From contig CAVZGV010000003.1 of assembly GCA_963774955.1 (NCBI GenBank), positions 386,981 to 450,980 on the forward strand: a DNA stretch of 64,000 nt. Direction: 5' to 3'. The position numbers and the translations under genes are program-made. The notes beneath the pieces are model-generated. The model searched no databases. It saw nothing but the letters and a program-made list of their open reading frames with translations, and was not told where the DNA came from. The first letter of the stretch is position 1; each line of letters starts with the position of its first letter. The DNA is from Candidatus Falkowbacteria bacterium. GTDB taxonomy: Bacteria; Patescibacteriota; Patescibacteriia; CAIXNZ01. This document shows positions 8,798 to 57,667 of this stretch, in pieces.

Positions 8798-8860
8798 AGA
8801 CGCGTCGGTCCTTAACCAAACAACTTAACATCAAACAAAAAACAAAAAGGAGACTTCAAA

Positions 8861-40392: not shown

Positions 40393-40577
40393 TTATATTT
40401 TCAGCCATTTTCGCCTCGGCTATGATTTTTTTATAAAATATGATATTTTTTAAATAACAAAGTTAATAATGTCTGCCTTGTGCAGGCCAGGAATAAACAA
40501 TTTAACAAAGGCCGCTTAGGCATGAAACTTCCTTCTACGCTTAGGAGGACATGTCAGTGGCCGAAGGGAGGCAGGAA

Positions 40578-40947
40578 AATGTTGAGAATTTCGCGGTTAA
40601 TGGGAGTCCTGTTGTGGCTGTTTTCGTTCCAGGTCTTTGCCTTGATCAGTCAGAGCATGCCGGCGCAGAACTTTTGGCTGGATGTGGGCACGGCCTTGGG
40701 CATGTTCGTGGTCGCCGCCTTCGTGCTCGGTCTCAGCCTCACGGACAATTCGGATTTGTCGTACGTCAGCACCTTGTTTCTGGTCGTGGTGGCCAGTGCT
40801 GTGATGACTTTTCGATTCCTTGGCCAGACGCCCTATGTCTGGTACGACCTGATGATCATCATGGCTGCGCCTCAGGTCATGGCCCTGGCCATTGGTTTTA
40901 GCTTAACCACGCGACAATCCCGGGCCGACTTGCAGTCCAGCCCCTGA
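40578..40947 (+). CDS. hypothetical membrane protein (GC-rich)
   Basis: RBS GGGAGG precedes ATG 40578 (MLRISRLMGVLLWLFSF…). Strong terminator GCGGCACTCTTTCGAAAGAGGCCGC plus T8 at 40968-41000. Confidence 0.45.
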
Positions 40948-41097
40948 CATCCGCACCATCTCAAACAAGCGGCACTCTTTCGAAAGAGGCCGCTTTTTTT
41001 TGTCTCAAAAATCAAATAAAGCCTGTCTTGACTTTTATAAAAATATGCGTTATTATTAAGTGTTCTTTATATTTCAACAAAAACAGGAGGATTGACC

Positions 41098-42189
41098 ATG
41101 AACTGGATAGATTTGCATTTGCATACGGCCTATAGTCGGGAAGCGGATAATTTTTTACCGGAGCGCTTGGCCAGTATTGCTGAGGCCAAGGTCAAGCGGC
41201 CTGGTTTGAAGGTTGCCGGGGTGGTTGATCATGACACGATTAACCACTGGGAACCCATGTACCGGGCCCAGCAAAAATTCGCACCCGGCCAATTACCGAT
41301 TATTTTGCCCGGAGTTGAAATCTCATCTTGTTTTACTTTTCTGGGTAAGGTAATTCAGACTCATGTTTTGGGGTTTTTCCCCAAGCTGATTCGTTATGAC
41401 CGGGAAAAATTGGTGCGGGTGGACAAGATTTTCCGTCAACCTTTAACCGATATTCTCAACGGTCGTTGGGCCAAGAATGTCGAGATCCGCATTCAATATC
41501 TGCTGAAAAACAACCTTCTGCCTGCGGGCTATGATGTCCAAAACATGATTGCCCGAGTCAAAGCCAAGAATCAGCACGATCTTGATTTCGTCAGCCAGGA
41601 ATCGCCCAAAGACGGCGATGTTATCAATCTGCCCCTGACGACTTCGCATCTTTTCGTCCTCGAAGTAATGCTCGAAGACGGCTTGATTGAAAGCATTGAA
41701 GAGGGCATGTTGTACCTTGACCGGCACTATGAAGACAAGGTCGCGAAATTGGCCAAGATTCTGGCCCGACGCGAGCAGATTTCTGACGAACAGGCTTATG
41801 CCAAGGCCAGGGTCCTTCAGGGGAGCTGTCACGGCAGTTATGGCGATGACTGGTTCAAGCTGTCGACTCAGGACGCTTTGAGTCTGATTCGTCTGGCCGG
41901 TGGTGTGGCCATCCTGGCTCATCCCATGGTTTCTTTCAAGAAATTCCCGGGCGGGATAACAGCCTTCTTTGAATTTTGCCGCCAGGAATTAATCATTGCC
42001 GGACTGATGGGCCTGGAAGCTTATTATCCTCGGCAAGACGAATATCAGCCGGCAATTATTGAATTTTGCCGTCAAAACGGCCTGATTATCACCGGTGGTT
42101 CAGACGATCATCAGGATGGTCGCAATCACATCGGCGAAGTCATTTGTCCCTATGAAAATGTGGAGCAAATGATCAGCGCGCATCTGTAA
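41098..42189 (+). CDS. PHP-domain metal-dependent phosphoesterase
   Basis: RBS AGGAGG precedes ATG 41098. N-terminal IDLHLHTAYS (PHP motif I). His/Asp-rich motifs downstream (…VVDHDT…, GGSDDH). Confidence 0.6.
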   Translation: MNWIDLHLHTAYSREADNFLPERLASIAEAKVKRPGLKVAGVVDHDTINHWEPMYRAQQKFAPGQLPIILPGVEISSCFTFLGKVIQTHVLGFFPKLIRYDREKLVRVDKIFRQPLTDILNGRWAKNVEIRIQYLLKNNLLPAGYDVQNMIARVKAKNQHDLDFVSQESPKDGDVINLPLTTSHLFVLEVMLEDGLIESIEEGMLYLDRHYEDKVAKLAKILARREQISDEQAYAKARVLQGSCHGSYGDDWFKLSTQDALSLIRLAGGVAILAHPMVSFKKFPGGITAFFEFCRQELIIAGLMGLEAYYPRQDEYQPAIIEFCRQNGLIITGGSDDHQDGRNHIGEVICPYENVEQMISAHL

Positions 42190-42259
42190 AGATGCGCGCT
42201 TTTTTATATCTAGATTTCAATTGACTTGTCTGCTCTTTGGCTGTAAAATTAGAGTAAAT

Positions 42260-43264
42260 ATGACCAAACAAACCGAAAAATTCAATAAAGGCGAAATCAT
42301 CATTTATCAGCCCAAAACCGGCGGGCCCAGGTTTGAGGTTGAGTTAGAAAAAGAATCAGTATGGCTAACCCAAGATCAAATGGCTCATTTGTTTGATAAA
42401 GGAAGATCTACAATTACTGAACATATTAATAATGTATTCAGAGAGAAAGAATTAAATGAAAAGTCAGTATGTCGGTATTTCCGACGTACTGGTTCTGATG
42501 GCAAAGTATACGAGGTTAAATATTATAATCTTGATGTAATTATATCTGTTGGTTATCGTGTGAAATCTAAACGAGGTACCGACTTCCGCATTTGGGCTAC
42601 TAATGTTCTTAGGACTCACTTAATCAAAGGTTATACTTTGAATCAAAAGCGTCTTAGAGAGACTCAATTAACAGATTTGGAACAGGCAGTGGCTCTGGTT
42701 AAAAATGCCTTGGAAACTAAAAAGCTCAAAGGCGCAGAAGCTAAGGGTTTGCTTGAAGTTATCACCAAATACGCTCAATCCTGGTTATTATTGCAAAAAT
42801 ACGATGAAGATAAATTGGTTTTGCCGGTTAAGCAGGCCAAACCCAAATATGAATTGGATTATAATCAGGCGATTAGTGCAATTTCTGATTTAAAGAACAA
42901 TCTGCTGGCCCAAAAGCAGGCTACTGATATATTTGGCAATGAAAGGGGGGAGGCATTAGCCGGGATTATCGGCAATCTTTACCAGACTTTTGGCGGTAAG
43001 GTCTTATATCCGTCAATTGAAGCCAAGGCTGCTCATCTGCTTTATTTCATCATCAAGGATCATCCGTTTAGCGATGGCAACAAGCGCATCGGCTCGTTTT
43101 TGTTTATCGTATTTTTGAGCAGAAATAATTATTTGCTGGATAAAAAGGGAGAGAGTAAGATAAATGATAATGCCTTGGTTGCTTTAGCTTTACTGATCGC
43201 CGCCAGCGACCCCAAACAAAAAGATGTCTTGGTCAAGCTGGTTATGAACTTTTTGACAAACTAA
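42260..43264 (+). CDS. RhuM-family protein with a C-terminal Fic/Doc domain
   Basis: RhuM N-terminal signature …VWLTQDQMAHLF…TITEHINNVF…YNLDVIISVGYRVKS…FRIWATNVL. Fic motif HPFSDGNKRIG (HPFx[DE]GNxR). Confidence 0.7.
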   Translation: MTKQTEKFNKGEIIIYQPKTGGPRFEVELEKESVWLTQDQMAHLFDKGRSTITEHINNVFREKELNEKSVCRYFRRTGSDGKVYEVKYYNLDVIISVGYRVKSKRGTDFRIWATNVLRTHLIKGYTLNQKRLRETQLTDLEQAVALVKNALETKKLKGAEAKGLLEVITKYAQSWLLLQKYDEDKLVLPVKQAKPKYELDYNQAISAISDLKNNLLAQKQATDIFGNERGEALAGIIGNLYQTFGGKVLYPSIEAKAAHLLYFIIKDHPFSDGNKRIGSFLFIVFLSRNNYLLDKKGESKINDNALVALALLIAASDPKQKDVLVKLVMNFLTN

Positions 43265-43417
43265 AAATTCCGCAAACGGAGCTAAGCTCCGAAGCGTCGG
43301 AGCTTAGCTCCGTCTTTCCCACTAACCAATAACCCCGCCCTCTACTTGCCCTCCGTAGCAATAGCGGAAAATGGGCGAAGGCAAGTAATCCCGCTACGCG
43401 GGAAAACTCTTAAATAT

Positions 43418-44095
43418 ATGGAAAAACAATTAATCATAAAATTACATAAAAATTTTGAAGATTGCGCTCATGAAAACGATGGGGTCGAATTTTGGTATGC
43501 TCGGGAATTGCAGTCTCTTTTAGGCTATGATCGTTGGGAAAATTTTGCCAATGCTGTAGAAAAAGCTAAAATTGCCTGTAAAAATTCTAAACAAAGCCTG
43601 TTAGACCATTTTCGTGACGTTACGAAGATGGTTAATATTGGTTCAGGCGCGAAAAAGGAGGTATCTGATATTATGTTGACCCGTTACGCCTGTTATCTTA
43701 TTGCGCAAAATGGCGACCCGAGAAAAGATGAAATAGCTTTTGCCATGACATATTTTGCGGTCCAGACCAGGAAGCAGGAACTTGTGGAACAGCGAATTGA
43801 AGCCTGGGAAAGATTGCAGGCCAGAGAAAAGCTATCATTATCTGAAAAGGAGTTGTCAGGAGTTTTATTTGAACGGGGAGTCGATGGCGTGGGATTTGCC
43901 AGAATTCGCAGCAAAGGCGACACGGCTTTATTTGGCGGCTATAATACTCAAGAGATGAAAAGCAAGCTTGGCGTATCAGAAAAAAGGCCTCTGGCTGATT
44001 TTCTGCCCAGAATAACCATCAAGGCCAAGGATTTAGCTAACGAGATAACGAGTTTCAATGTACACCACACACCATTCACCAAACCAACATCCTAA
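43418..44095 (+). CDS. DinD-like (DNA-damage-inducible protein D family) protein
   Basis: ATG 43418 (MEKQLII…). …GVEFWYARELQSLLGYDRWENFANAVEKAKIACKNS…DHF… matches the DinD-family core. Confidence 0.5.
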   Translation: MEKQLIIKLHKNFEDCAHENDGVEFWYARELQSLLGYDRWENFANAVEKAKIACKNSKQSLLDHFRDVTKMVNIGSGAKKEVSDIMLTRYACYLIAQNGDPRKDEIAFAMTYFAVQTRKQELVEQRIEAWERLQAREKLSLSEKELSGVLFERGVDGVGFARIRSKGDTALFGGYNTQEMKSKLGVSEKRPLADFLPRITIKAKDLANEITSFNVHHTPFTKPTS

Positions 44096-45141: not shown

Positions 45142-46524
45142 TTGATTGATTCGAAAACTTTTTCACTTGTCTCGGCTTTAGACGGAAAAAAAGTTTCACA
45201 AAAACTTGATTTGTTAATTATATTAGCTATGTGGCCAATATTTAAAAATGAAATTATAGAGGTGGTAAGACTTCTAGAAAATGAGAAATGGTTTGTTTTT
45301 GGTGGCTATACTATATATTTACAAAATATTAATCACAATCCCAAGGATATAGATATAATAACTACGTTAGAAGGTTTGACTAATTTAAAAACTAAGATTG
45401 GTAAGTATTCTAACGAGAAAGGAGATAATTGGATTGGGATAACATTTAAGTTAGGAGATGTGGAATTTGAAGTTATTACTGAAGAGAGTTCGGATTTACA
45501 ATATTATCAAGAATTTTTAGAGAATAGCGAGTATATTTTTATAACCTTGACTACGGCAGATGGTATACAAATACCCTGCTTATCTTTGTTAAAACAGGCT
45601 CAGGGTTATTATAATGTATACTGTGATGGTAAGGGTAGCCAAGACCCAATGATTAAAATAAAATTGATTGCAAATTTTTTAAATTTAGATCCCAATAAAT
45701 TTTTCGAATCATTAGAAAGAGAGTATAAAATTAAAAAGATAAAGTATTATATAAATAAAGGGCTTTCGTATGAACAGATTGGAAAAATACTGAATATTTC
45801 CCGGGCCAGGGTTCATCAATTGTATAAAAAATATTATCCCAAAAGAATAAATAATAATTTGAAGAAAATAGTTTTTGCTAGCGATAATATGCAGTGTCAA
45901 TGGCACAATATTTGCAGGGATAAGAAAGTTTTGAGATCTGATTTAGTGATTCATCATCTTGATGGAGACAATACCAATAATAATTTAGATAATTTAGTAA
46001 CTCTTTGTCGGTTTTGCTCAGCAGCATTTAATAAAATTAGAGATAAAGGGTATAAAGAATATATTTGTGATATATGCCAAAAAAAGTATAATCTTAAAGA
46101 AGGTAAGCTAATTAAAGATAAGTTTATCTGCAAATCATGCATAGAGGTGCGGAAAAATAAGAAAAATATATATTGGTGTGAAAAGTATAAACTTTCAAAA
46201 TGTGTCATCTGTGGAGAAAATAAAATAAGACATTTTGGGAATGGATTGTGTAGAAGATGTTATGGTAAGTTGAGATTTAGTGATACTGAAAATAAAATAA
46301 AACACAAAGAATCAATGAGAAAATGGCGAATTAAAAATTTAGAAAAAATAAAGTCAAAACAAAGGAAATATCATAAGAAATATTATTCAAAAAACAGGGA
46401 GATGTTATTGCGACAACAGAAAGAAAGAATGCAGGATATAAAGTTGAATGACCCCATTAAATATAAAGAGTTAAAAGAAAAGTGGACATTATATAACAAA
46501 AATAAATCCAAGCTTGCTCATTAG
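45142..46524 (+). CDS. AT-rich multidomain protein: NTase-like N-terminus, sigma70-region-4-like HTH, HNH endonuclease, multiple zinc ribbons
   Basis: TTG start per ORF track. FGGYTIYLQ…KDIDII (NTase-like). GLSYEQIGKILNISRARVHQLYKK (HTH). LVIHHLDGDNTNNNLDNLVTLCRFC (HNH). Then repeated CxxC pairs. Markedly lower GC than its flanks. Confidence 0.55.
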   Translation: MIDSKTFSLVSALDGKKVSQKLDLLIILAMWPIFKNEIIEVVRLLENEKWFVFGGYTIYLQNINHNPKDIDIITTLEGLTNLKTKIGKYSNEKGDNWIGITFKLGDVEFEVITEESSDLQYYQEFLENSEYIFITLTTADGIQIPCLSLLKQAQGYYNVYCDGKGSQDPMIKIKLIANFLNLDPNKFFESLEREYKIKKIKYYINKGLSYEQIGKILNISRARVHQLYKKYYPKRINNNLKKIVFASDNMQCQWHNICRDKKVLRSDLVIHHLDGDNTNNNLDNLVTLCRFCSAAFNKIRDKGYKEYICDICQKKYNLKEGKLIKDKFICKSCIEVRKNKKNIYWCEKYKLSKCVICGENKIRHFGNGLCRRCYGKLRFSDTENKIKHKESMRKWRIKNLEKIKSKQRKYHKKYYSKNREMLLRQQKERMQDIKLNDPIKYKELKEKWTLYNKNKSKLAH

Positions 46525-46650
46525 GTAAATGGCCATATATGATGTTAAAGTTAATTTATAAATTAAGATAAAAAGTCCTCTGGCGGAAGAGGATTTTTTG
46601 TGGATAACTTATATTGACTACTGACTAAACAGTCAGTACAATATAAGTAT

Positions 46651-47274
46651 ATGAAAACCTCAATTATCACCCCCAGGCAAAAGCAATTACTTCAAATTAT
46701 CCATGACTGGTTAAAAACTGAAGGTAATATTCCTTCATTTGAAGAAATGAAAAATGAACTTGGCGTAAACTCAAACCAAGCAGTTTTGGATTTATTAGAG
46801 AAATTGGAGGAGAAGAAAATGATTAAAAGAAACGAAGGACTAGCAAGATCAATAAATATTTTACAAAAGGGTTATGAATCACTTGAAGTTGCGCCTTTAG
46901 TAAATGTTGTTGGATTGGGTTCATGCGGACCTTTAGTTGAATTATTTGAGCAGAAAGATGTTTGGATGGAATTATCTCCGGAAGTTCATCAGTTTTCACA
47001 TGAGTTAATTATTATTAGGGCATTTGGCGATTCCATGATTGGGGCTGGTATTATTGATGGCGATTTGTTGCTTTTTACTAAAGCTAAAGAATTTAAGGAT
47101 AATGAAATTGTATTAGCCAGAACTATGGATGGTACAACCGTTAAACGATTAATAAATCGCGATAAAAAAACATATTTTCAGCCTGAAAATCCTAAATATG
47201 AAAGAATACCCGTGACTGAAGAAACTTATATTTTAGGTAAATTAATTAAAAATTTATCAAGAAATTATGCTTAA
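46651..47274 (+). CDS. lexA: LexA-like repressor (wHTH plus S24 peptidase)
   Basis: N-terminal LTPRQKQLLQIIHDWL…PSFEEMKNELG…NQAVLDLLEKLEEKKMIKR. C-terminal S24 block AFGDSMIGAGIIDGDLLL…TVKRL (Ser/Lys dyad). Stop overlaps the next gene start by 8 nt. Confidence 0.75.
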   Translation: MKTSIITPRQKQLLQIIHDWLKTEGNIPSFEEMKNELGVNSNQAVLDLLEKLEEKKMIKRNEGLARSINILQKGYESLEVAPLVNVVGLGSCGPLVELFEQKDVWMELSPEVHQFSHELIIIRAFGDSMIGAGIIDGDLLLFTKAKEFKDNEIVLARTMDGTTVKRLINRDKKTYFQPENPKYERIPVTEETYILGKLIKNLSRNYA

Positions 47275-49210
47275 AAAAGAATTATCTAGCCAAATCATAA
47301 ATAAAATCTTCAAAGATCCCGAAGTGCAGTATGGGCTAAAAGAATTTAAGGGCATTAAGCTTGCTGATGTCTTGGAAATTTTTGAAATTGAAAAAGGTAA
47401 GTATTATATAAAGGATCCTGTACGCGCTAAGGATATTTTAGTTTATAATGAGGAAAAAAATTTAAGCAAACCGGAGGAAATTATCCGTCAGCTTTGGCTT
47501 CATAAGATTATTAAAGATTATGGCTACCCGATAGATCGTATTGGGATTGAAAAAGACATCCATTTTGGCAGAGAAATTCATGGCAAAGCCGCTGATATTG
47601 TCATTTATCAAAAAGACAAGGAAACACCTTGGGTAATTATTGAATTAAAAAGTCCTGATGAGAAAAAAGGGTTGGAACAGTTAAAAAGTTATGTTAATTC
47701 CGAAGGAGCACCAATCGGCGTTTGGTCAAACGGCAACGAAAGAGTGATTTTATACCGATCACACCCTCATGAATTTGAAAATACTTTAAGGGATATCCCC
47801 AGAGCCGATCAATCAATTGAAGATGTGTTGGCAGAAGATGTGACCTTATCTGACTTGGAAAGCGATTTTGATTTGGTGGATATTATTAAAATTTTGGAAG
47901 AATTGGTTTTGGCTAATTCCGGGATGGATAGTTTTAATGAGATTTTTAAGCTGATATACGCAAAACTTTTTGATGAAAAAGAAGCTAAGAAGCGCGAAAA
48001 AAAGATTTTATATTTTAGACAATATAAGGATCCTGAATTGACCATGGCGCAAGTCAGCAAATTATTTGATTCAGCCAGGAAAGAATGGCCGGGAATCTTT
48101 AATGATTATGAGAAGATAGAATTGTCTCCCAATCATCTGGACGTCTGCGTGGGGCAATTGGAAAGAATTAAATTATATGATGCTAATCTGGAAGTTATTG
48201 ATTCCGCTTTTGAATATTTATTGCCTGATGTTGCTAAGGGCAAGAAGGGACAGTATTTTACGCCTCGCCATGTAATTAATATGGCGGTAAAAATGTTAAG
48301 TCCTCAGCCAAATGAATATGTCATTGACCCAGCCTGCGGTTCCGGCGGATTTTTAATTCACGCCATGCGTTATGTGTATGATAATTATTTGCATTTGGAT
48401 AGGGAGGCAATGAGTGATTACGCCAAAAAATATTTATTCGGCATTGATTTTGACGACAAATCAGTTAAGATTTCCCGCGCGCTCATGCTGATTGCCGGTG
48501 ATGGCAAATCTCATATTTTTAAATTAAATTCTTTAAATCCTAGGGATTGGATGGGGAATGAGGCGGAAAAGGAAAGAGCCAGAGGCGAATTAAGAAATTT
48601 GCTGCATAAATTTGATGATTATGATAAAAATAAAGACAATCAGGAAAATTTTAGATTCTTTGATTACGACATTTTACTTTCCAACCCTCCCTTTGCCGGA
48701 GAAATAATTGAAAAGTCGCTTTTAAACCAATATGAATTGTCAAAAAATGAAGCCGGTAAATTAAAAAATAAAATGGAACGCCATATTTTATTTATTGAGC
48801 GTTCATTGCAATTGGTCAAACCAGGCGGCAGATTGGCAATAGTTTTACCGCAAGGCGTTTTTAATAATACCAACATGCAGCAGATAAGGCAGTTTTTAAT
48901 GGACAAGGCAAGAATTTTAGCGGTAGTCGGGCTGAATGTGAATACTTTTAGACCTCATGCAGGAGTGAAAACATCAGTCCTATTTTTACAAAAATTTAAG
49001 GATAAGGAAAAACAGCCCAAAGATTATAATATTTTTATGGCCGTCTCCAAAAAGTCAGGCAAGGACAATTCAGGGGATTATGTTTATAAAAAAGATGCTG
49101 AAGGCAAGTTGGCGGTTGACATGAAAGGTAAGAAGGTTTTAGATCATGATTTGGACGAAATTGCGGAAGAATTTTTAAAGTTTGCGAAAAAGGAGGGTTT
49201 TAATTTTTAA
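47267..49210 (+). CDS. fused PD-(D/E)xK endonuclease / gamma-class N6-adenine DNA methyltransferase (Type IIB BcgI-A-like or Type IIG-like RM subunit)
   Basis: N-terminal AADIVIY…VIIELKSP (D…ExK). MTase motif I VIDPACGSGGFL and motif IV LSNPPF. 647 aa. Followed by a separate HsdS-like gene. Confidence 0.65.
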   Translation: MLKKELSSQIINKIFKDPEVQYGLKEFKGIKLADVLEIFEIEKGKYYIKDPVRAKDILVYNEEKNLSKPEEIIRQLWLHKIIKDYGYPIDRIGIEKDIHFGREIHGKAADIVIYQKDKETPWVIIELKSPDEKKGLEQLKSYVNSEGAPIGVWSNGNERVILYRSHPHEFENTLRDIPRADQSIEDVLAEDVTLSDLESDFDLVDIIKILEELVLANSGMDSFNEIFKLIYAKLFDEKEAKKREKKILYFRQYKDPELTMAQVSKLFDSARKEWPGIFNDYEKIELSPNHLDVCVGQLERIKLYDANLEVIDSAFEYLLPDVAKGKKGQYFTPRHVINMAVKMLSPQPNEYVIDPACGSGGFLIHAMRYVYDNYLHLDREAMSDYAKKYLFGIDFDDKSVKISRALMLIAGDGKSHIFKLNSLNPRDWMGNEAEKERARGELRNLLHKFDDYDKNKDNQENFRFFDYDILLSNPPFAGEIIEKSLLNQYELSKNEAGKLKNKMERHILFIERSLQLVKPGGRLAIVLPQGVFNNTNMQQIRQFLMDKARILAVVGLNVNTFRPHAGVKTSVLFLQKFKDKEKQPKDYNIFMAVSKKSGKDNSGDYVYKKDAEGKLAVDMKGKKVLDHDLDEIAEEFLKFAKKEGFNF

Positions 49211-49236
49211 GCATTTAATTATTAATAATTAGGAAT

Positions 49237-50052
49237 ATGAAAGATCTTATATCTCAAATTAAACAAAGTACCATATTTCTCGGGTTTATGAGAAATAATG
49301 AACCTGTCTATGTTGGAACTGGGTTTCTTATTCAGGTTGATGATGTTTTTTATGTTGTTACGGCAAAACATGTTGTTGAAAAAAAATATAGTCAAATGTA
49401 TATATTCCTAAATAATAAAAATTTTGGTGTAAATTTTAAGTCTATTCAAGAAATACTTAATCAGGGCTGGTCATGGAAAAAACATGGTGACAATGATGTT
49501 GACATCGCTTTATTGCCATTCCCGTTAGCTCCAACTGATAAATCAAAATTTATTCCACATACTTTATTTATTCAAGAAATAGCTGACATATCAGAACTTG
49601 TAAATTTATTTTTTTTATCGTATCAGCCAGGCATCAATGAGCTAAAAAATGATTCATCAATAAATCCTATAATTAGGAAGGGCGTAATATCAAGAATTAA
49701 TTACGATAAAACTTTTTTTATGGATGGGTTTGCATTCCCTGGAAATAGCGGCAGTCCCGTATTTTTGTTGCCAACGCCTATAAAAATTCAAAATGGTTTA
49801 ATGCAAATTGGAGGGCCGGTAGAAATTAAATTGGCAGGAATAATTGGGGCATATATTCCATACAGAGATGTAGCAGTAAGTGAGCAAACCGGAGAAGTTA
49901 GAGCTATTTTTACTGAAAACACTGGGATAGCACTTGTTCACTCAACAGCTCTTCTCCAGGAGATTATTAAGGGTGAAGATTTTCAAGAACAACATAAAAA
50001 ATTGACAAAAATAAAATTGATTCCTCAGGCGGAAAAAGAGCATTCTTCTTAG
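49237..50052 (+). CDS. cytoplasmic trypsin-like (S1/chymotrypsin fold) serine peptidase
   Basis: No signal peptide. His in VVTAKHVV, Asp in VDIALLPF, Ser in FPGNSGSPVFL. Confidence 0.55.
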   Translation: MKDLISQIKQSTIFLGFMRNNEPVYVGTGFLIQVDDVFYVVTAKHVVEKKYSQMYIFLNNKNFGVNFKSIQEILNQGWSWKKHGDNDVDIALLPFPLAPTDKSKFIPHTLFIQEIADISELVNLFFLSYQPGINELKNDSSINPIIRKGVISRINYDKTFFMDGFAFPGNSGSPVFLLPTPIKIQNGLMQIGGPVEIKLAGIIGAYIPYRDVAVSEQTGEVRAIFTENTGIALVHSTALLQEIIKGEDFQEQHKKLTKIKLIPQAEKEHSS

Positions 50053-50129
50053 TAGTTGGTATCTTTATTGATATTTTATCCCTATCTGTAGCCGTAAGTG
50101 GATAATCAAAATTAACTTAATTTTATTAT

Positions 50130-50966
50130 ATGGATGAGCGATTAAATAAAATGATTCTCGATATGGGAAAGCAATATGGCGAACATGCTAAAATTTTGAG
50201 CGAAAAAGTCAATGCGGAAATGAAAAAAAATTTTAAGGTAATCCATGAGATTACAGAAAGTTTAAAAAAACAAATTGAAGATATCAGCCCCGCAATTTTA
50301 ATGGTTCAAGAATCTATTCGGCAATTTGAGGAATCTAAGGAGTTTCATAAATTTGAGCAGCAAGCGTTTAATAATAGTGGTTGGTGGATAACCCCTTCAT
50401 TAATGGAAGTTCCAGTATACAAATTCCGTAATGCTGTAATTAAATACAATAAGGGTCAAAAAATTGCTATAACTAATTTGTATATATCGATTTATCAAAA
50501 GAATAATTGTAAATATTTGGGGCAGGTATTAAATAGTTGGGATAGTAATAAATACTTTAAACCATGGATGAAAATTATAAGGCAAGCATTAGAAGCTCAT
50601 GTGGATAAAAAATATTTTCTGTCAGTACCCGCATTATTGTTAGTAGCCGAGGGTATTTCAACTAATTATTGTAAAAAAAATAAGATTAAAATTCCCTATA
50701 AAGAAAATTCAAAAGGAGGTGAGAAAATCAAAAAAGCATTAAATTATATTAAAAATAATAAAGAAATTGAATTTTTAAATGCAGATTTTTTTATACTTGC
50801 TCTTGATAATATTATCTATGCTCAGACTTATAAAATTAATAAAAAAACTTTTAAATATTTCCTTAATCGCCATGCGGTTTTGCATGGTGGAACTACAGAC
50901 TATGGCACTTTGAAGAATTCATTAAAGTGTTTTATGTTGTTAGATTTTTTAAGTATTTTAAAATAA
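50130..50966 (+). CDS. hypothetical protein (278 aa), partner of the trypsin-like peptidase
   Basis: No recognisable motif. AT-rich. Its stop abuts the HsdS start (50966/50967). Confidence 0.5.
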   Translation: MDERLNKMILDMGKQYGEHAKILSEKVNAEMKKNFKVIHEITESLKKQIEDISPAILMVQESIRQFEESKEFHKFEQQAFNNSGWWITPSLMEVPVYKFRNAVIKYNKGQKIAITNLYISIYQKNNCKYLGQVLNSWDSNKYFKPWMKIIRQALEAHVDKKYFLSVPALLLVAEGISTNYCKKNKIKIPYKENSKGGEKIKKALNYIKNNKEIEFLNADFFILALDNIIYAQTYKINKKTFKYFLNRHAVLHGGTTDYGTLKNSLKCFMLLDFLSILK

Positions 50967-52292
50967 ATGACTTACTCAATAATCCCCAAATCCCACTTGG
51001 AAGGCGCTCTGCGTCTAGACCCGGAATACTATCAGCCGGAGTATTTGGAATTGATAAAAAAACTCGAGAAGTTGACTGATAAAAAATTGAAAGATTATGC
51101 TATTAACATTTCCAGGGGGTTTAAACCAATCAAGGGCGACTTTTTTAATTATATTGAAATATCAGAAATTGATTTAGGGAATGGTACTTTTAATGAATCT
51201 AAAATTCTAGGTGAGGAAGCACCGGATAGGGCGCAAAAAGTTGTAAAAGAGGGCGACGTTATTGTGTCTACTGTCAGGCCTAATAGAAATGCTGTTTCTT
51301 TGATCAGGGCAGAGCATAACAATTTTGTTGCTTCGAGCGGTTTTTGCAATATTGAACCTCGAAAAGTTTCTTCAGAGTATTTATTCGCTTATCTAAAAAC
51401 TAATCATGTTATAAAGCTATTGGACAGATTGACTTCCGCAAGCATGTATCCCGCGGTAACAGAGGAAGACATAATGAATTTACCTTTTTATGTTAAAAAT
51501 GAGCAAGCTATTATTAAATTAGTAAAAGAAGTTTTTGAGCAAATTGAGAAATCGAAATCGCTTTACGCCCAAGCCGAAGATTTACTGCTTGAAGAATTGG
51601 GTATTAATGATTTGGAATCAGAAGAAGATTTAACTTTTACAGCTACTTTAAAGGATTGCCTGCAAGCTGTTCGTATTGATGCTGATTTTTTTCAGCCGAA
51701 GTATGAGAGGATTTTAAGTAAAATAAAAGTTAAAAGGGAGAAATTAAGTAATTTAGTTTCTTTACAAAAGGGGATTGAGCCAGGCAGTGAAGAATATGCG
51801 GAAGAAGGCAAGCCGTTTATTCGCGTATCCAATATGTCCAAGTTCGGCTTAAATGATAATAATCAGCAATATTTGAGCGAGAAAATGTATAATGAATTGA
51901 AAGATAAATATCAGCCTCAAAAGGGAGATATTTTATTAAGTAAGGATGCGACTCCTGGCATTGCGGTTTTACTAGAAAAAGATGTTGAGGGTATTATCTC
52001 TGGCGGTACTTTACGATTAAAAATAAAAGATAAAACTTTAGTTCCTCAATACTTATCTTTAGTTTTAAATTCTGTAATTTGCCAAATGCAAATCGAAAGA
52101 GATGCTGGTGGGTCAATTATTATTCACTGGAGACCTGATCAAGTGGAAAATACAATTATTCCTATTTTACCCATCAAAATCCAGCAAAAAATTGCTGATT
52201 TGGTCAGTGAATCTTTTAAGTTAAGAAAAGAGGCCAAGGAACTACTAGAAGAAGCGAAAAAGAGGGTGGAGGAGGAGATTGAGAAGAAATAA
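50967..52292 (+). CDS. hsdS: restriction-modification specificity subunit (HsdS-like, two TRDs)
   Basis: GDVIVSTVRPNRNAV, YPAVTEEDIMNLPFYV, IPILPIKIQQKIADLV and a C-terminal coiled-coil spacer. 441 aa. Confidence 0.7.
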   Translation: MTYSIIPKSHLEGALRLDPEYYQPEYLELIKKLEKLTDKKLKDYAINISRGFKPIKGDFFNYIEISEIDLGNGTFNESKILGEEAPDRAQKVVKEGDVIVSTVRPNRNAVSLIRAEHNNFVASSGFCNIEPRKVSSEYLFAYLKTNHVIKLLDRLTSASMYPAVTEEDIMNLPFYVKNEQAIIKLVKEVFEQIEKSKSLYAQAEDLLLEELGINDLESEEDLTFTATLKDCLQAVRIDADFFQPKYERILSKIKVKREKLSNLVSLQKGIEPGSEEYAEEGKPFIRVSNMSKFGLNDNNQQYLSEKMYNELKDKYQPQKGDILLSKDATPGIAVLLEKDVEGIISGGTLRLKIKDKTLVPQYLSLVLNSVICQMQIERDAGGSIIIHWRPDQVENTIIPILPIKIQQKIADLVSESFKLRKEAKELLEEAKKRVEEEIEKK

Positions 52293-52295
52293 ATA

Positions 52296-52320
52296 AAAAT
52301 CTCATCTAAAATATTTTTTA
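52296..52320. repeat. REP-like intergenic motif AAAAATCTCATCTAAAATATTTTTTA (copy 1)
   Basis: Variants at 54369-54395, 54714-54740, 55689-55715, 59652-59688 (CCCCTAAGGGG variant), 60718-60745 and 62154-62181. Always sits between a stop and the next start. Confidence 0.6.
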
Positions 52321-52336
52321 AAATAACTAAAAATCT

Positions 52337-53923
52337 ATGGAAGCAGGTAAGAGAAACATCTCAGATATATTTAATCGCGCGCATAAATTATCAGTCCCTC
52401 ATTTTCAGCGAGCGTATGTTTGGGATGAGGAACAGTGGGAAAGATTTTTGGAGGATGTGGACTATGCTTCACGGGCAAATCCCCCTTATTTTATGGGGTC
52501 TATTATCTTGAAACAGCAAGAGACTACAATTAAGCAAGGCGATATACGTACAATTATTGATGGCCAGCAAAGATTGACGACATTTATTTTATTCTTTAAA
52601 GTACTCTATGATAAGCTAGGATTACCCGAAAAATTTAAGGAAATTTTCACCACTTTTGGCGGTGATATAATTCTGGAACATAATTATTCCGACAGGCCAA
52701 TCTTTGAAAAAATTTTACTGGGTGATGAATTGGGTAAAAAGGAAAAGAAGACAAGAATTTATAAATGTTATGATTATTTTTTGAATAATATTGATGAAAA
52801 AGTAATTAGCCCCAATAACTTACTGTCAAATATATTATTTGTGGGTATTGAGTTGCAATATCATGAAGATGAGCAGCAAATTTTTGATACTATTAATTCA
52901 TTGGGTGTTAGACTGACAACTGCCGAATTGTTGAAGAATTATTTATTTAAGGATGATCTTGATTTTTATAATAAGAATTGGCGCGATGTATTTGAAAAAG
53001 AGGATGAAATTAAGGAATACTGGGACCAGGGAGTAACTTCCGGCCGAAATATTAGAAATAATATTGACCTATTCTTGCAGTCTTATTTATTTATTAAGAT
53101 TCAAGAGAAAGACATTAATGTGAGCTCTGAGGATAAAGAACGTTATTTTAAGATTGATTCCGTTTTTAATTCGTATAAGGAATTCATGAATAAATACAAA
53201 CAGGATAGGGATTCGATCATCAATGAGTTAAAGGATTATGCGCTTATTTATAAGGATACTATTAATCCCGAAATTGTTGAGCAAGATTTAAATGCAGATG
53301 ATTATGTGCAGCGGATAAACTTGGTAATGTTTGGATTAGATACTGCAACGATTATTCCATATGTGCTGTATGTATCCAAAAAAGTGAGAGATGAGGAGGA
53401 AAAAAATAAGATTTTTAGATATCTTGAAGCGTATTTGATGAGACGGCTTGTTTCGAAAAAAACTACTAAAAATTACAATCAATTATTTAGGGGTTTTATT
53501 AATAATGAGATTGATACATTGGAAAAATTAAAGGATGCAATTGAGAAAAAGGGCGAAAAGATTAATAATATGCCAACAGACAATGATGTAATGGAGGGCG
53601 TAAATAAATCCCAGCTAACTAATAAACAAGCAAGGGGCATCCTTTATTTGATTGAGAGGTCAATCAGAAGCGATCTAAACGCTACTGAGCTAAAATTTCT
53701 TAATGAATATAGTCTTGAACACGTAATGCCAAAGAAATGGAGGAATAATTGGGGAGGTAATGAATTAACTGATGAACAGAAAAAAGAGCGAGATGATATA
53801 TTGTTGACATTGGGTAATTTGACATTAATTACTAAAAAATTAAATTCGTCAATTAGAGATTCTGACTGGCAGAAAAAGAAAAAGGGTAGGGGAAGCCATA
53901 AAGGATTGCTAGAGTATGCTTAA
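52337..53923 (+). CDS. GmrSD-like Type IV restriction enzyme (DUF262 ParB-like N-domain plus DUF1524 His-Me C-domain)
   Basis: N-terminal …HFQRAYVW…IIDGQQRLTT (DGQQR). C-terminal …LEHVMPKKW…LGNLTLI (His-Me finger-like). Confidence 0.6.
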   Translation: MEAGKRNISDIFNRAHKLSVPHFQRAYVWDEEQWERFLEDVDYASRANPPYFMGSIILKQQETTIKQGDIRTIIDGQQRLTTFILFFKVLYDKLGLPEKFKEIFTTFGGDIILEHNYSDRPIFEKILLGDELGKKEKKTRIYKCYDYFLNNIDEKVISPNNLLSNILFVGIELQYHEDEQQIFDTINSLGVRLTTAELLKNYLFKDDLDFYNKNWRDVFEKEDEIKEYWDQGVTSGRNIRNNIDLFLQSYLFIKIQEKDINVSSEDKERYFKIDSVFNSYKEFMNKYKQDRDSIINELKDYALIYKDTINPEIVEQDLNADDYVQRINLVMFGLDTATIIPYVLYVSKKVRDEEEKNKIFRYLEAYLMRRLVSKKTTKNYNQLFRGFINNEIDTLEKLKDAIEKKGEKINNMPTDNDVMEGVNKSQLTNKQARGILYLIERSIRSDLNATELKFLNEYSLEHVMPKKWRNNWGGNELTDEQKKERDDILLTLGNLTLITKKLNSSIRDSDWQKKKKGRGSHKGLLEYA

Positions 53924-55815: not shown

Positions 55816-56196
55816 ATGCCAAACGCTAATTTAAAAAAATTCGGCGAGCTTTTGAAAGCTTTAAGAATGAAGCAGGATTTAAGCTTGCGGGACGTATGCA
55901 AAAAGGTTAATTATGACCCCAGCAACTGGAGCAAGATTGAAAGAGGTATGATTTCTCCGCCCAGCGAGGAGGTTGTTTTAGGCCAATGGGCATTGGCCTT
56001 AGGTCTGGCCAAAGAGAGCAAAGAGTATTATGAATTTATTGATTTGGCCAATATTGCCCAGGGCATTATTCCGGATTACATTATGCAGGAAAAAGACTTG
56101 GTCAGAGCTTTGCCGGCTTTTTTCAGGACGGTTAGAAATGAAAAACCGACCAAAAAAGAGATTGACGATTTAATCAATCTGATTAAGAATAATTAG
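55816..56196 (+). CDS. XRE-family HTH transcriptional regulator
   Basis: LKALRMKQDLSLRDVCKKVNYDPSNWSKIERG (HTH_3). Confidence 0.65.
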   Translation: MPNANLKKFGELLKALRMKQDLSLRDVCKKVNYDPSNWSKIERGMISPPSEEVVLGQWALALGLAKESKEYYEFIDLANIAQGIIPDYIMQEKDLVRALPAFFRTVRNEKPTKKEIDDLINLIKNN

Positions 56197-56203
56197 GAAA
56201 TTA

Positions 56204-56779
56204 ATGCAAACACCTTATTTCAAAAATCAGGAGCTTAAGCACAAAGCTGATGAGTTCAGAATTAAGCATTGGGGCAATGATGTGCCGGTAGATATTGAGC
56301 AGATTATTGAAGTTAAGCTGGGTATGGATATTATTCCGGTTCCCGGTTTATATAAACAATGCAATACCGATGCTTTGATTTCTTCGGACTGGAAGACGAT
56401 TTATGTGGATAATGATAATTATATTGATGACAGATGTTATAACCGCATTCGTTTCTCTTTGGCGCATGAAATCGGCCATTTTATTTTGCATCAGGAGCTT
56501 TATGCATCTTTTGGCATTATGAGCGTTGAGGATTTTTATAATATAATTGATGGGTTAAATAATGATTATGGGATAATTGAAGGCCATGCCAATCGCTTTG
56601 CCAATTTTTTGCTGGTACCGAGAGAAAAATTGGAAATTGAAAAGGTCAAAGCCTTGCAAGCCCACCCCGAAATAAAGGAATTGGAAGCTGCAACTGTAAA
56701 TTCCTACATTGCTATTCCCTTAAGTAAAATATTTGAGGTTAATGAAGGAGTCGTGGAAATTAGCCTAAATAACAAATAA
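56204..56779 (+). CDS. ImmA/IrrE-family metallopeptidase
   Basis: HExxH in SLAHEIGHFILH. Immediately downstream of the XRE gene, the classic ImmR/ImmA arrangement. Confidence 0.65.
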   Translation: MQTPYFKNQELKHKADEFRIKHWGNDVPVDIEQIIEVKLGMDIIPVPGLYKQCNTDALISSDWKTIYVDNDNYIDDRCYNRIRFSLAHEIGHFILHQELYASFGIMSVEDFYNIIDGLNNDYGIIEGHANRFANFLLVPREKLEIEKVKALQAHPEIKELEAATVNSYIAIPLSKIFEVNEGVVEISLNNK

Positions 56780-56802
56780 AGAGTTTATTTTAAAATACCC
56801 CT

Positions 56803-57553
56803 ATGACCCAATACTATAACCCCAACCGCGCCCCAGACTGGAACTATGGCGGGAAAAATTGGAAACTGTCACGATCAAAAATTGACCTTTTTGTAGAGTG
56901 TCCCAGATGTTTTTATGTTGATAATAAACTTGGCACCAAACGACCACCAGGATTTCCGTTTAATATAAATTCAGCAGTTGATAAATTATTGAAGCAAGAA
57001 TTTGATGTTCATCGCTCCAATGGCACTCAGCACCCATTGCAAAAAAAATATAAAATTGACGCAGTACCTGCCCCGCATGAAAGCATTGATATTTGGCGGG
57101 ATAATTTTAAAGGCGTTTCAATATTTGCATAAAGCTACCGGCATGACCATCTCCGGCGCGATTGATGATCTTTGGATTAATTCAAAGGGCGAATATATGG
57201 TGGTTGATTATAAAGCCACTGCAAAGGAAGAGGCCGTGACAGAACTTGATCAGGAATGGCAAGATGGTTATAAACGCCAAATGGAAGTTTATCAGTGGTT
57301 ATTGCGTAAAAATAAATTAAAAGTCTCTAATACCGGCTATTTTGTTTATTGTACCGGCCGTACAGACGTTGAGGCATTTGACGGTAAAATAGAATTTAAT
57401 GTAAATGTGATTCCTTATACAGGTTCTGATAAATGGGTTGAAAAAACCATTAAAGAAACTCATAAATGTTTGGAAAATAATAAAATCCCTTCTTCAGGCG
57501 CTGATTGTGATTATTGTAAATATGTGGATGCGAGGAATAAGTATGTTAAGTAG
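56803..57553 (+). pseudogene. Cas4/RecB-like PD-(D/E)xK nuclease with Cys cluster, split by a frameshift (ORFs 56803-57132 and 57002-57553)
   Basis: N-terminal …FVECPRCFYVD. Core IDDLWINSKGEYMVVDYK (D…E.K) plus QMEVYQWLL (QxxxY). C-terminal C-x12-CDYC. The two ORFs overlap in different frames; the frame switch falls between ~57060 and 57130, downstream of an A8 run at ~57043. Confidence 0.45.
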
Positions 57554-57629
57554 AAATCTCATCCCCAAAGCCAATCCCAATTGCGCTTATTGCAATTATC
57601 GGTCAGAGGCAAGGGAAGTGGAGGAATAA
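57543..57629 (+). CDS. candidate 28-aa Cys-containing peptide (MLSRNLIPKANPNCAYCNYRSEAREVEE)
   Basis: ATG preceded by GAGGAATAAGT. Overlaps the stop of the Cas4-like gene. Lies ~40 nt upstream of the rSAM/SPASM gene. Contains CAYC. Confidence 0.25.
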   Translation: MLSRNLIPKANPNCAYCNYRSEAREVEE

Positions 57630-57667
57630 AAATTTTATTTAAAATATTTTCAAAACAATTTTTTAAG

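What the first reader, a model, noticed from the sequence alone, without database searches (positions are those of the whole stretch)
49237..50966. Cytoplasmic trypsin-like peptidase plus 278-aa unknown protein inserted between the catalytic and specificity genes of the RM system
ORF 49237-50052 has a complete His/Asp/Ser triad (TAKHVV, DIALL, GNSGSPVF) and no signal peptide. Its neighbour (50130-50966) has no recognisable domain and ends exactly at the HsdS start. Protease-plus-effector pairs inside defence loci are the hallmark of several abortive-infection systems (for example gasdermin-type or protease-activated toxins). The AT-rich composition suggests separate acquisition.
Basis: inference. 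Interest (0 to 1): 0.65.

Follow-up and report, generated by a model that had tools for sequence, protein, structure and literature searches.

The report
Swappable defence genes inside restriction operon
The two genes are real, but they are not a protease-plus-toxin pair: they are two independently mobile defence-type genes (a cytoplasmic serine protease of a known candidate family, and a predicted HEPN-type RNase of an undescribed family) in a swappable slot between the methylase and specificity genes of a restriction operon common in ultra-small (CPR) bacteria.

Summary
Both ORFs exist as described. The 271-aa protein is a chymotrypsin-fold serine peptidase. Its triad H45/D89/S171 is invariant in 34 homologues, it has no signal peptide, and it matches PADLOC candidate family PDC-S45 over its full length.

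The "pair" reading fails:
- None of 71 peptidase loci has a relative of the 278-aa protein within 6 kb.
- About 30 loci of the 278-aa family have no conserved partner.
- The nearest related operons carry other genes between M and S. With M 96% identical, the slot holds DUF4145/PD-T7-4 plus an unknown gene. With M 75% identical, it holds the peptidase plus four other genes and no 278-aa homologue.

DNA homology to the 96% relative stops 17 nt after the M stop codon and resumes exactly at the S start codon. So 49228-50966 is a cleanly bounded replaceable cassette.

This is "defence genes embedded in RM systems", a described phenomenon. Antiphage and RNase activities are inferred, not shown.

The parts
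46614..46642 (+). Promoter-like site (TTGACT-17-TACAAT). It encloses a 20-nt palindrome, TACTGACTAAACAGTCAGTA (46619-46638), which is a candidate operator for the LexA-like repressor.
   Evidence: This is the best + strand consensus match in 46.4-54.2 kb. The palindrome was found, and it is conserved in L047 while the flanking sequence diverges. Function is inferred.
46651..47274 (+). LexA-like repressor (LexA DNA-binding domain plus S24 peptidase). First gene of the operon; it overlaps the M start by 8 nt.
   Evidence: Pfam Peptidase_S24 8e-19 and LexA_DNA_bind 3e-11. NCBIfam lexA scores 117 bits against a cut-off of 111. The gene lies directly upstream of M in all 8 related loci.
47267..49210 (+). 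Bifunctional M subunit: an N-terminal PD-(D/E)xK nuclease-type domain (HSDR_N_2) plus an N6-adenine methyltransferase. It is MAD2-like but scores below the family cut-off.
   Evidence: Pfam N6_Mtase 9e-40 and HSDR_N_2 7e-21. PADLOC MTase_I 1e-184. NCBIfam MAD2 scores 334 bits against a cut-off of 720. Motifs D110, E126-x-K128 and NPPF473 are present.
49228..50966 (+). Variable cargo slot (cassette) between M and S.
   Evidence: blastn against L130 (M 96% aa identity): homology at 87.9% ends at 49227 and resumes at 50967 at 89.6%. The slot holds different genes in 8 related loci.
49237..50052 (+). Cytoplasmic S1/Trypsin_2 serine peptidase of PADLOC candidate family PDC-S45. Catalytic residues are H45 (nt 49369), D89 (nt 49501) and S171 (nt 49747).
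   Evidence: The gene-sized DNA module 49214-50016 is shared with L047, L120, L122 and L124 at 72-76% identity.
50130..50966 (+). Coiled-coil plus HEPN-like protein. A long helix spans residues 3-83 and a helical bundle spans about 89-274. The Rx4H motif is R247-H248-x3-H252-G253 (nt 50868-50888). E174 and H157 are also conserved.
50967..52292 (+). Specificity (S) subunit with two target-recognition domains; MAD5-like but below the family cut-off.
   Evidence: Pfam Methylase_S. PADLOC mad5 2e-34 and Specificity_I. NCBIfam MAD5 scores 138 bits against a cut-off of 400. It is 77.5% identical to the L047 S subunit and 64% to the L130 S subunit; TRD1 has no detectable DNA homology with L130.
52337..53923 (+). 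GmrSD-type (DUF262/DUF1524) type IV restriction enzyme. It is an adjacent, separate insertion and is absent from the related operons.
   Evidence: Pfam GmrSD_N 6e-36 and GmrSD_C 2e-16. PADLOC Orf5 and HEC-06. No counterpart in L130-L135.

Best explanation
The locus is a five-gene operon: LexA-like repressor, nuclease-methylase fusion (M), two cargo genes, then the specificity subunit (S). This operon type has no HsdR and is common in CPR/Patescibacteria. The space between M and S is a hypervariable slot whose content is exchanged as gene-sized cassettes. The exchange probably occurs by homologous recombination in the conserved M and S flanks (inferred).

In this genome the slot carries two independent single-gene modules:
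1. A cytoplasmic trypsin-fold serine peptidase of candidate defence family PDC-S45.
2. A member of a large, undescribed HEPN-like family. It most likely acts as a metal-independent RNase and dimerises through its N-terminal coiled coil. By analogy with PrrC, PD-T7-4/DUF4145 and other RM-linked HEPN proteins, it would serve as a second-line, abortive-infection-type effector when restriction fails.

Both cargo genes are transcribed with the RM genes, because transcripts from the LexA-gene promoter must pass through them to reach S.

Shown: gene structure, conserved catalytic residues, folds, exact cassette boundaries, variable slot content, and absence of a conserved partnership.

Inferred: RNase activity, antiphage function, LexA control, the recombination mechanism, and functional independence of the protease.
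For: Cassette:
- Homology with L130 (M 96% aa identity) stops 17 nt after the M stop and resumes exactly at the S ATG.
- Slot contents differ in 8 loci with M 67-96% identical. They are: Pep + 278-aa; DUF4145/PD-T7-4 + 302 aa; 120 + 233 aa; DUF3800/PDC-M04A + NYN + AbiU2-like + Pep + 169 aa; 285 aa; 236 aa; 207 aa. L023 has the 278-aa homologue + 175 aa.

Independence of the two genes:
- The family HMM of the 278-aa protein hits none of 71 peptidase loci. It does detect a 25%-identical member in L124 at 9e-45, so sensitivity is adequate.
- A Pfam census of neighbours shows no recurrent partner for either family.
- The peptidase gene alone is shared at DNA level with four other contexts.
- Relatives of the 278-aa protein on Bacillus, Cupriavidus, Burkholderia and Planococcus plasmids stand alone.

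HEPN assignment:
- R247, H248, H252 and G253 are invariant in 16 close homologues. In 27 diverse C-terminal domains R, H252 and G253 stay invariant and H248 is at least 90% conserved. E174 is also conserved.
- The polar residue after R, the upstream acidic residue and the motif position before the last helix all match the published HEPN definition (PMC3710099).

Defence context:
- PDC-S45 1e-19 over the full length.
- The same slot in the closest relative holds a PD-T7-4-family HEPN protein.
- At least 16 HEPN clades are linked to R-M systems (PMC3710099).
- Embedded genes in type I RM, BREX and DISARM are enriched for defence (bioRxiv 10.1101/2024.01.29.577857).

Operon:
- Short gaps or overlaps (-8, 26, 77 and 0 nt), all genes on one strand, no + strand terminator-like site in any intergenic gap, and the best promoter-like site just upstream of the LexA gene.
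Against: - No experiment supports antiphage, RNase or protease activity.
- PDC-S45 is only a candidate family.
- Neighbours of more distant peptidase homologues include housekeeping genes, and about 10% of homologues look exported. The family may not be uniformly defensive.
- Three or four loci put a trypsin-like peptidase next to or near a HEPN-type gene: the window, L124, L003, and weakly L047. A functional link is therefore not excluded.
- The slot was occupied in all 8 loci sampled. The slot gene could be a required component rather than optional cargo.
Confidence: 0.62

Rival explanations
1. Protease-activated toxin pair. The peptidase senses infection and cleaves the 278-aa protein, for example removing its N-terminal coiled coil. 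This releases an active effector that kills or arrests the cell.
For: - The two genes are adjacent and probably co-transcribed.
- L124 has a 75%-identical peptidase one gene away from a member of the 278-aa family.
- The Moranbacteria locus L003 has a 45%-identical homologue of the 278-aa protein directly followed by a different Trypsin_2 peptidase.
- In L047 a weak AbiU2-like HEPN gene sits 13 nt upstream of the peptidase.
Against: - No co-occurrence in 71 peptidase loci or in most of the roughly 30 loci of the 278-aa family.
- L047, L120, L122, L048 and L049 carry close peptidase homologues without the 278-aa family.
- The peptidases in the window and in L003 are barely related (BLASTP E 0.016).
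- The peptidase is a bare catalytic domain plus one helix, with no sensor or repeat domain.
- The effector is HEPN-like, not gasdermin-like or pore-forming.
Confidence: 0.13
2. The slot genes are obligatory functional components of this HsdR-less RM family, as mad3/mad4 are in MADS, rather than optional cargo. The M-S core would provide methylation-based self/non-self marking, and whichever gene occupies the slot would provide the actual interference activity.
For: - The slot was never empty in 8 loci.
- M and S are the closest relatives of MAD2 and MAD5.
- In MADS the two genes between mad2 and mad5 are required for defence (bioRxiv 10.1101/2023.03.30.534895).
Against: - M carries its own intact PD-(D/E)xK motif, so it can plausibly restrict DNA by itself, as in type IIB/IIG enzymes.
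- The slot genes are unrelated to each other and biochemically heterogeneous: protease, HEPN, NYN, DUF3800 and membrane proteins.
- The mandatory MADS genes mad6-8 are absent.
- Only 8 loci were sampled.
Confidence: 0.15
3. One or both genes have no defence role. The peptidase could be a housekeeping or regulatory protease. The 278-aa protein could be a non-catalytic helical protein, for example a regulator like HEPN-derived MtlR, or a plasmid/phage accessory protein.
For: - Distant peptidase homologues lie next to housekeeping genes, and about 10% have signal peptides.
- Some members of the 278-aa family carry N-terminal wHTH domains.
- There is no sequence-level link to characterised HEPN proteins.
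Against: - The patchy cross-domain distribution of the peptidase indicates horizontal transfer.
- All close CPR homologues sit among RM, MORC, Fic, HNH or DUF3800-type genes.
- Strict conservation of Rx4H across the family argues for catalysis.
- Neighbours of the 278-aa family are rich in defence and mobile-element domains.
Confidence: 0.1

Closest known systems
Defence genes embedded within RM/BREX/DISARM/Hma systems ("guilt-by-embedding", Payne et al. 2024, bioRxiv 10.1101/2024.01.29.577857). Includes PADLOC candidate PDC-S45.
   Same: Uncharacterised small genes are nested between subunit genes of a methylation-based system. The peptidase matches the PDC-S45 model over its full length (1e-19). 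The slot in relatives holds other entries of the same catalogue: PDC-M04A, an HEC-09-like NYN protein and PD-T7-4.
   Different: The 278-aa family is not in PADLOC 2.0.0. The host system is an HsdR-less, LexA-headed M+S operon of CPR bacteria rather than a classical hsdRMS. PDC-S45 itself has not been tested.
PrrC/EcoprrI and other RM-linked HEPN RNases (Anantharaman et al. 2013, PMC3710099); the single-gene HEPN defences PD-T7-4 (DUF4145) and HEC-08.
   Same: A HEPN-type protein with an Rx4-6H motif is encoded inside an RM operon. The proposed logic is a latent RNase acting as a second line of defence. The closest relative's slot holds a DUF4145/PD-T7-4 protein.
   Different: There is no ABC-ATPase regulator as in PrrC. 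The N-terminus is a coiled coil, or a wHTH domain in relatives. There is no detectable sequence similarity to any Pfam HEPN family. Activity and trigger are unknown.
MADS (methylation-associated defence system; mad1-mad8)
   Same: The order is regulator, MAD2-like methylase, two extra genes, then MAD5-like S subunit. M and S give their best NCBIfam hits to MAD2 and MAD5.
   Different: Scores are far below the equivalog cut-offs (334 vs 720; 138 vs 400). mad3 (ATPase/Toprim) and mad4 (DUF4276) are replaced by unrelated genes. The mandatory mad6-8 (kinase, DptG-like, HerA-like) are absent.
Bacterial gasdermin/protease operons and other protease-activated toxins
   Same: A serine peptidase gene lies next to a gene of unknown function inside a defence locus.
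   Different: The neighbour is all-alpha and HEPN-like, not a gasdermin fold. The peptidase lacks the repeat or sensor domains that, to my knowledge, are usual in gasdermin-associated proteases (not tested here). The gene pair is not conserved.
Type IIB (BcgI-like) / type IIG restriction-modification enzymes
   Same: Nuclease and methylase motifs are in one polypeptide, a separate HsdS-like specificity subunit is present, and there is no HsdR motor. The BcgI architecture is from my own knowledge.
   Different: Membership was not tested. PADLOC files M under type I methyltransferases. The cleavage mode is unknown.

Membership tests
S1 / Trypsin_2 serine peptidases (chymotrypsin fold) | Double beta-barrel chymotrypsin fold | tested here: met
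   AF2 model with pLDDT 88.8. Foldseek top hits are HtrA1, DegP, DegS, V8 and Spl proteases at E about 1e-7. Pfam Trypsin_2 scores above its cut-off.
S1 / Trypsin_2 serine peptidases (chymotrypsin fold) | His-Asp-Ser triad in that order, conserved in homologues | tested here: met
   H45, D89 and S171 are invariant in 34 homologues. Spatial geometry in the model was not inspected.
PADLOC PDC-S45 (single-gene phage defence candidate) | Full-length match to the family HMM | tested here: met
   E 1e-19; residues 2-257 match profile positions 12-284 of 293.
PADLOC PDC-S45 (single-gene phage defence candidate) | Antiphage activity | not testable with these tools
   The family is a candidate only. 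One paper in the library mentions it, without functional data on it as far as I saw.
HEPN superfamily | Rx4-6H motif with a polar residue (N/D/H) after R, placed before the last core helix | tested here: met
   R247-H248-A-V-L-H252-G253. All four conserved residues are invariant in 16 close homologues. In 27 diverse C-terminal domains R, H252 and G253 are invariant and H248 is at least 90% conserved. The motif precedes helix 261-274. Definition from PMC3710099.
HEPN superfamily | Conserved upstream acidic residue (often Ex3[KR]) | tested here: inconclusive
   E174 is at least 90% conserved, but the x3[KR] spacing is not seen.
HEPN superfamily | Four-helix up-and-down HEPN fold | tested here: met
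HEPN superfamily | Metal-independent RNase activity | not testable with these tools
   Needs biochemistry.
Gasdermin-type pore-forming effector with activating protease | Gasdermin fold (beta-rich pore-forming N-terminal domain) in the effector | tested here: not met
Gasdermin-type pore-forming effector with activating protease | Conserved protease-effector gene pair | tested here: not met
   0 of 71 peptidase loci contain the family. One of about 30 loci of the 278-aa family has an adjacent, different trypsin-like gene.
MADS | mad6, mad7 and mad8 present (mandatory in the authors' detection model) | tested here: not met
   No PADLOC mad6-8 hits among the 9 neighbouring proteins.
MADS | M and S reach the MAD2 and MAD5 equivalog cut-offs | tested here: not met
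   334 vs 720 bits, and 138 vs 400 bits.
Classical type I RM (hsdRMS) | Separate HsdR helicase-nuclease subunit | tested here: not met
   There is no ResIII/HsdR gene within about 8 kb in the window or in L047 and L130-L135. M carries the HSDR_N_2 nuclease-type domain instead.

The most novel reading that the evidence does not exclude
In CPR bacteria the lexA gene heads a conserved, HsdR-less M-S restriction operon. Its M-S gap would be a dedicated plug-in socket that is always filled by a changing effector (protease, HEPN, NYN, DUF3800 or membrane proteins). This would make an SOS-wired modular immune platform: the methylation core marks self DNA and the socket gene supplies the interference or abortive activity. 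On this reading the 278-aa protein founds a large, uncatalogued family of coiled-coil or wHTH-HEPN defence RNases, and the peptidase may gate it.
Probability: 0.15. Interest if true: 0.7.

Novelty: new member of a known kind. Interest (0 to 1): 0.4.

Why it matters
- It replaces a speculative protease-toxin reading with a specific, testable picture. The picture is a precisely bounded cassette slot inside a very common CPR restriction operon (more than 4,000 M homologues at E ≤ 1e-50), and the slot samples many small defence-type genes.
- It nominates a large HEPN-like family as a new single-gene defence candidate. The family has at least 4,021 cluster representatives and no Pfam, NCBIfam or PADLOC model. 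It also occurs on plasmids of Bacillus, Cupriavidus and Burkholderia.
- It gives PDC-S45 a clean natural context.
- The constant lexA-M linkage suggests DNA-damage control of immunity in organisms with minimal genomes. I found nothing on this in the searchable literature.

Tried and rejected
- **Sequence searches of the 278-aa protein.** Pfam, NCBIfam and PADLOC gave nothing. PHROGs gave only an unknown-function family (phrog_28904, 3e-10).
- **PDB sequence searches.** A single-sequence search gave only coiled-coil noise. A full-length profile again gave coiled-coil noise. A C-terminal-domain profile gave no HEPN hit.
- **Structure libraries.** The afdb50 fold library was unavailable. BFVD gave one uncharacterised siphovirus protein.
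- **Viral contigs.** No relatives of the 278-aa protein, and two distant peptidase relatives. The A2 alignment was too diverse for the pattern scan.
- **Slot genes as divergent members of the 278-aa family.** I tested whether the single slot genes of L132, L133, L135, L130 and L131 belong to that family, which would have made it the conserved third subunit. They do not.
- **L001 upstream gene as a peptidase.** It is a TPR protein.
- **MADS membership.** Considered and rejected.
- **Literature.** Searches for PDC-S45 function and for a LexA-RM operon in CPR found nothing useful.
- **Composition as evidence of separate acquisition.** It is weak compared with the direct comparative evidence.
Full report
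**1. Observation**

Both are on the + strand, and the second ends one base before the ATG of the S gene at 50967.

The first protein is a genuine serine peptidase:
- Pfam Trypsin_2 scores above threshold.
- H45, D89 and S171 are invariant in an alignment of 34 homologues sharing 43-80% identity.
- A confident AF2 model (pLDDT 88.8) has Foldseek best matches to HtrA1, DegP, DegS, V8 and Spl proteases.
- It lacks an N-terminal hydrophobic segment. By contrast, 12 of 120 homologues carry a signal-peptide-like extension. "Cytoplasmic" holds for this copy but not for the whole family.

The 278-aa protein has no Pfam, NCBIfam or PADLOC hit.

The two genes are more AT-rich than M and S. GC is 32.5% and 27.8% against about 35%, and GC3 is about 0.23 against 0.32-0.35. 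However, the whole block from 45.1 to 54 kb is AT-rich relative to the window mean of 39.6%.

**2. The host operon**

Upstream lies a LexA-like repressor gene (46651-47274). It scores above the NCBIfam lexA cut-off, and its end overlaps the M start by 8 nt.

M (47267-49210) joins an HSDR_N_2 PD-(D/E)xK domain (D110, E126-x-K128) to an N6-adenine methylase (NPPF at 473). S (50967-52292) is a two-TRD specificity subunit. No HsdR gene is present. The enzyme therefore looks like a nuclease-methylase fusion plus S.

M and S give their best NCBIfam hits to MAD2 and MAD5 of the MADS system, but far below the cut-offs. The mandatory mad6-8 genes are absent.

The best promoter-like site in the region (46614-46642) lies just upstream of the LexA gene. 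It encloses a 20-nt palindrome that is conserved in a relative. No + strand terminator-like site lies in any gap between the genes.

A GmrSD-type gene follows S.

**3. What the 278-aa protein is**

A word-indexed search found only 16 relatives, all in CPR-type metagenomes. A profile of these, scanned against 1.84 billion cluster representatives, found 4,021 at E ≤ 1e-3 and 1,876 at E ≤ 1e-10. The family is therefore large.

None of 78 diverse members matches a Pfam model over the conserved core. Some replace the N-terminal region with MarR- or XRE-type HTH domains.

The conserved core carries the following:
- N-R247-H248-x3-H252-G253. All four conserved residues are invariant in the close set. 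In 27 diverse C-terminal domains R, H252 and G253 stay invariant and H248 is at least 90% conserved.
- Near-invariant E174-G175 and H157.

The AF2 model (pLDDT 80) is entirely helical. It has one long helix (3-83) and a bundle (about 89-274).

The motif matches the published definition of the HEPN RNase site. That definition is Rx4-6H, a polar N/D/H residue after R, an upstream acidic residue, and a position just before the last helix (PMC3710099).

Caveats:
- The motif segment has low pLDDT.
- Profile searches against PDB sequences give no HEPN hit.

I conclude that it is a coiled-coil plus HEPN-like protein and a predicted RNase. It is certainly not a gasdermin-like or beta-rich pore former.

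**4. Is it a pair?**

*From the side of the 278-aa family.* I examined 46 loci, about 30 of them non-redundant.
- A peptidase-family HMM hits only the Moranbacteria locus (L003 and its duplicates). There the adjacent Trypsin_2 gene belongs to a different subfamily (HMM E 5e-5; BLASTP E 0.016).
- A Pfam census of 81 neighbouring proteins shows no recurrent partner. It shows many defence or mobile-element domains: MTES_1575, SLFN_AlbA_2, KAP NTPase, NERD, Macro, DUF2779, pYEATS and integrases.
- Plasmid-borne relatives in Bacillus, Cupriavidus, Burkholderia and Planococcus are stand-alone hypothetical genes.

*From the side of the peptidase.*
- More than 574 homologues exist.
- The family is spread patchily over CPR, Planctomycetota, Chloroflexota, Omnitrophota and several archaeal phyla.
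- In 71 genome loci, an HMM of the 278-aa family finds nothing within 6 kb.
- Among 123 neighbours, no domain recurs more than three times, and some neighbours are housekeeping genes.
- Close CPR homologues (63-83% identity) lie in different defence-like settings. These include an HNH/DUF2130/radical-SAM region, a MORC-like ATPase plus Fic, and a type III-like methylase plus DUF3800.

*One exception.* In L124 a 75%-identical peptidase lies one gene away from a member of the 278-aa family. That member is only 25% identical to the window protein. The locus is beside a type IIG enzyme.

Three or four juxtapositions of a trypsin-like gene with a HEPN-type gene exist: the window, L124, L003, and weakly L047. 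This is more than nothing. However, the partners are not orthologous. I cannot distinguish this pattern from co-residence in the small defence islands of CPR genomes.

**5. The decisive comparison**

The M protein has thousands of CPR homologues. In every related locus I could read, the order is LexA, M, one to five unrelated genes, then S.

| Locus | M identity | Slot content |
|---|---|---|
| L130 | 96% | DUF4145 protein matching the PADLOC PD-T7-4 model, plus a 302-aa unknown |
| L131 | 79% | 120 aa + 233 aa |
| L047 | 75% | DUF3800/PDC-M04A, NYN, a weak AbiU2-like HEPN, the peptidase (81% identical), a 169-aa unknown; no 278-aa homologue |
| L132 | 71% | 285 aa |
| L135 | 70% | 207 aa |
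| L133 | 67% | 236 aa |
| L023 (fragment) | not seen (contig cut upstream) | homologue of the 278-aa protein + 175 aa, before a 44%-identical S |

None of the other slot proteins belongs to the 278-aa family.

At the DNA level:
- Window and L130 align at 87.9% from the promoter to 17 nt past the M stop (46594-49227).
- They share nothing across 49228-50966.
- They align again from the first base of S (50967-51062, 89.6%). Detectable DNA homology is then lost across TRD1 and returns at 51544-52329.
- The peptidase gene alone (49214-50016) aligns at 72-76% with L047, L120, L122 and L124. The 278-aa gene aligns with none of them.

The slot is therefore a cleanly bounded, rapidly exchanged cassette site. 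The peptidase and the 278-aa gene are separate modules that happen to share it here.

**6. Mechanism**

Most likely (confidence about 0.6), the operon is a LexA-repressed, HsdR-less RM system whose M-S gap carries interchangeable second-line defence genes. Because S lies downstream, transcripts that make a functional enzyme must include the cargo.

The HEPN-like protein probably dimerises through its coiled coil and cleaves RNA once triggered. This would resemble other RM-linked HEPN proteins such as PrrC and PD-T7-4/DUF4145.

The peptidase is a member of PDC-S45. That family is a single-gene candidate derived from genes embedded in RM, BREX and DISARM systems (bioRxiv 10.1101/2024.01.29.577857). 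Its substrate is unknown.

The anatomy, the conservation and the cassette boundaries are shown. Enzymatic activities, antiphage roles, LexA control and recombination through the M and S flanks are inferred.

Rival explanations:
- A protease-gated HEPN pair (about 0.13).
- Slot genes as obligatory effectors of a MADS-like core, given that the slot was never empty in 8 loci (about 0.15).
- No defence role (about 0.10).

**7. Comparison with what is known, and novelty**

Genes nested in RM operons have been described before:
- PrrC in EcoprrI.
- At least 16 HEPN clades linked to R-M systems (PMC3710099).
- TgvAB inside a Vibrio type I system (PMC11411939).
- The systematic "guilt-by-embedding" survey.

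The peptidase belongs to a catalogued candidate family.

New here are:
- A large HEPN-like family with no existing model.
- A sharply defined cassette slot in a CPR-wide operon.
- The constant linkage of that operon to lexA, on which I found no literature.

I file the finding as a new member of a known kind, with interest 0.4.

Noticed in passing
window 46614-47274; L047 1127-1801; L130-L135: A lexA-like gene lies directly upstream of, and usually overlaps, the nuclease-methylase gene in all 8 related CPR loci. These loci are often set among housekeeping genes (ftsA/ftsZ, rpoD, dnaG, tRNA synthetases). A 20-nt palindrome, TACTGACTAAACAGTCAGTA, sits between the -35 and -10 hexamers and is conserved in L047. 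This suggests SOS/LexA control of a restriction operon in CPR bacteria. No literature was found.
   Followed up: partly
L130 9958-11434; L131 9952-11107; L132 9926-10783; L133 9944-10654; L135 6953-7576; L047 3754-7319; L023 3-797: The gap between M and S was never empty in 8 related operons, and it holds mostly unrelated genes. Several are small predicted membrane proteins (233, 236, 207 and 175 aa). One unknown family of 285-302 aa recurs in L130 and L132 at 28% identity.
   Followed up: partly
window 52337-53923: A GmrSD-type (DUF262/DUF1524) type IV restriction gene lies 44 nt after S. It matches PADLOC Orf5 and HEC-06. It is absent from L130-L135, so it is a further insertion at the 3' end of the operon.
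   Followed up: partly
window 45142-46524: A 460-aa, very AT-rich gene (GC 28%) has a sigma-70 region 4 type HTH, a weak HNH_3 hit and many CxxC pairs. It lies between the M23 peptidase gene and lexA. L130 has other small ORFs at this position, although the M23 gene is 82% identical at DNA level.
   Followed up: no
window 40500-42000: GC jumps to 0.51-0.54 (window mean 0.40). Two overlapping ORFs lie in different frames (40480-40947 and 40551-40901), and a 365-aa ORF (41092-42189) has no Pfam hit. The compositional anomaly is unexplained.
   Followed up: no
window 42221-44095: A RhuM-Fic/DOC fusion protein (42221-43264) and a Bro-N domain protein (43346-44095) lie upstream of the operon. RhuM and DOC toxins are reported to accompany RM-linked HEPN genes.
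   Followed up: no
window 55816-57553: An HTH protein and an ImmA/IrrE (Peptidase_M78) protein form a pair (55816-56779). They are followed by two overlapping ORFs (56803-57132 and 57002-57553). Read by eye, these look like one Cys-rich PD-(D/E)xK/Cas4-like gene split by a frameshift. A radical SAM/SPASM protein follows (57581-59653).
   Followed up: no
L013-L015, 5881-6708: In activated-sludge contigs the homologue of the 278-aa protein is split into two adjacent ORFs (5881-6285 and 6286-6708). This is probably a frameshifted or decaying copy.
   Followed up: no
L124/L125 1673-9626: A type IIG enzyme (903 aa) is followed by several unknown genes. These include a 351-aa member of the HEPN-like family (5961-7016) and, one gene later, a peptidase 75% identical to the window's (8001-8822). 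This is the only other locus found with both families.
   Followed up: partly
peptidase homologues P0063, P0070, P0072, P0081, P0085, P0092, P0105, P0112, P0115, P0117, P0123, P0132: About 10% of the listed peptidase homologues carry a typical signal-peptide-like N-terminal extension. Part of the PDC-S45-like family is therefore probably exported, which sits awkwardly with a uniform intracellular defence role.
   Followed up: partly
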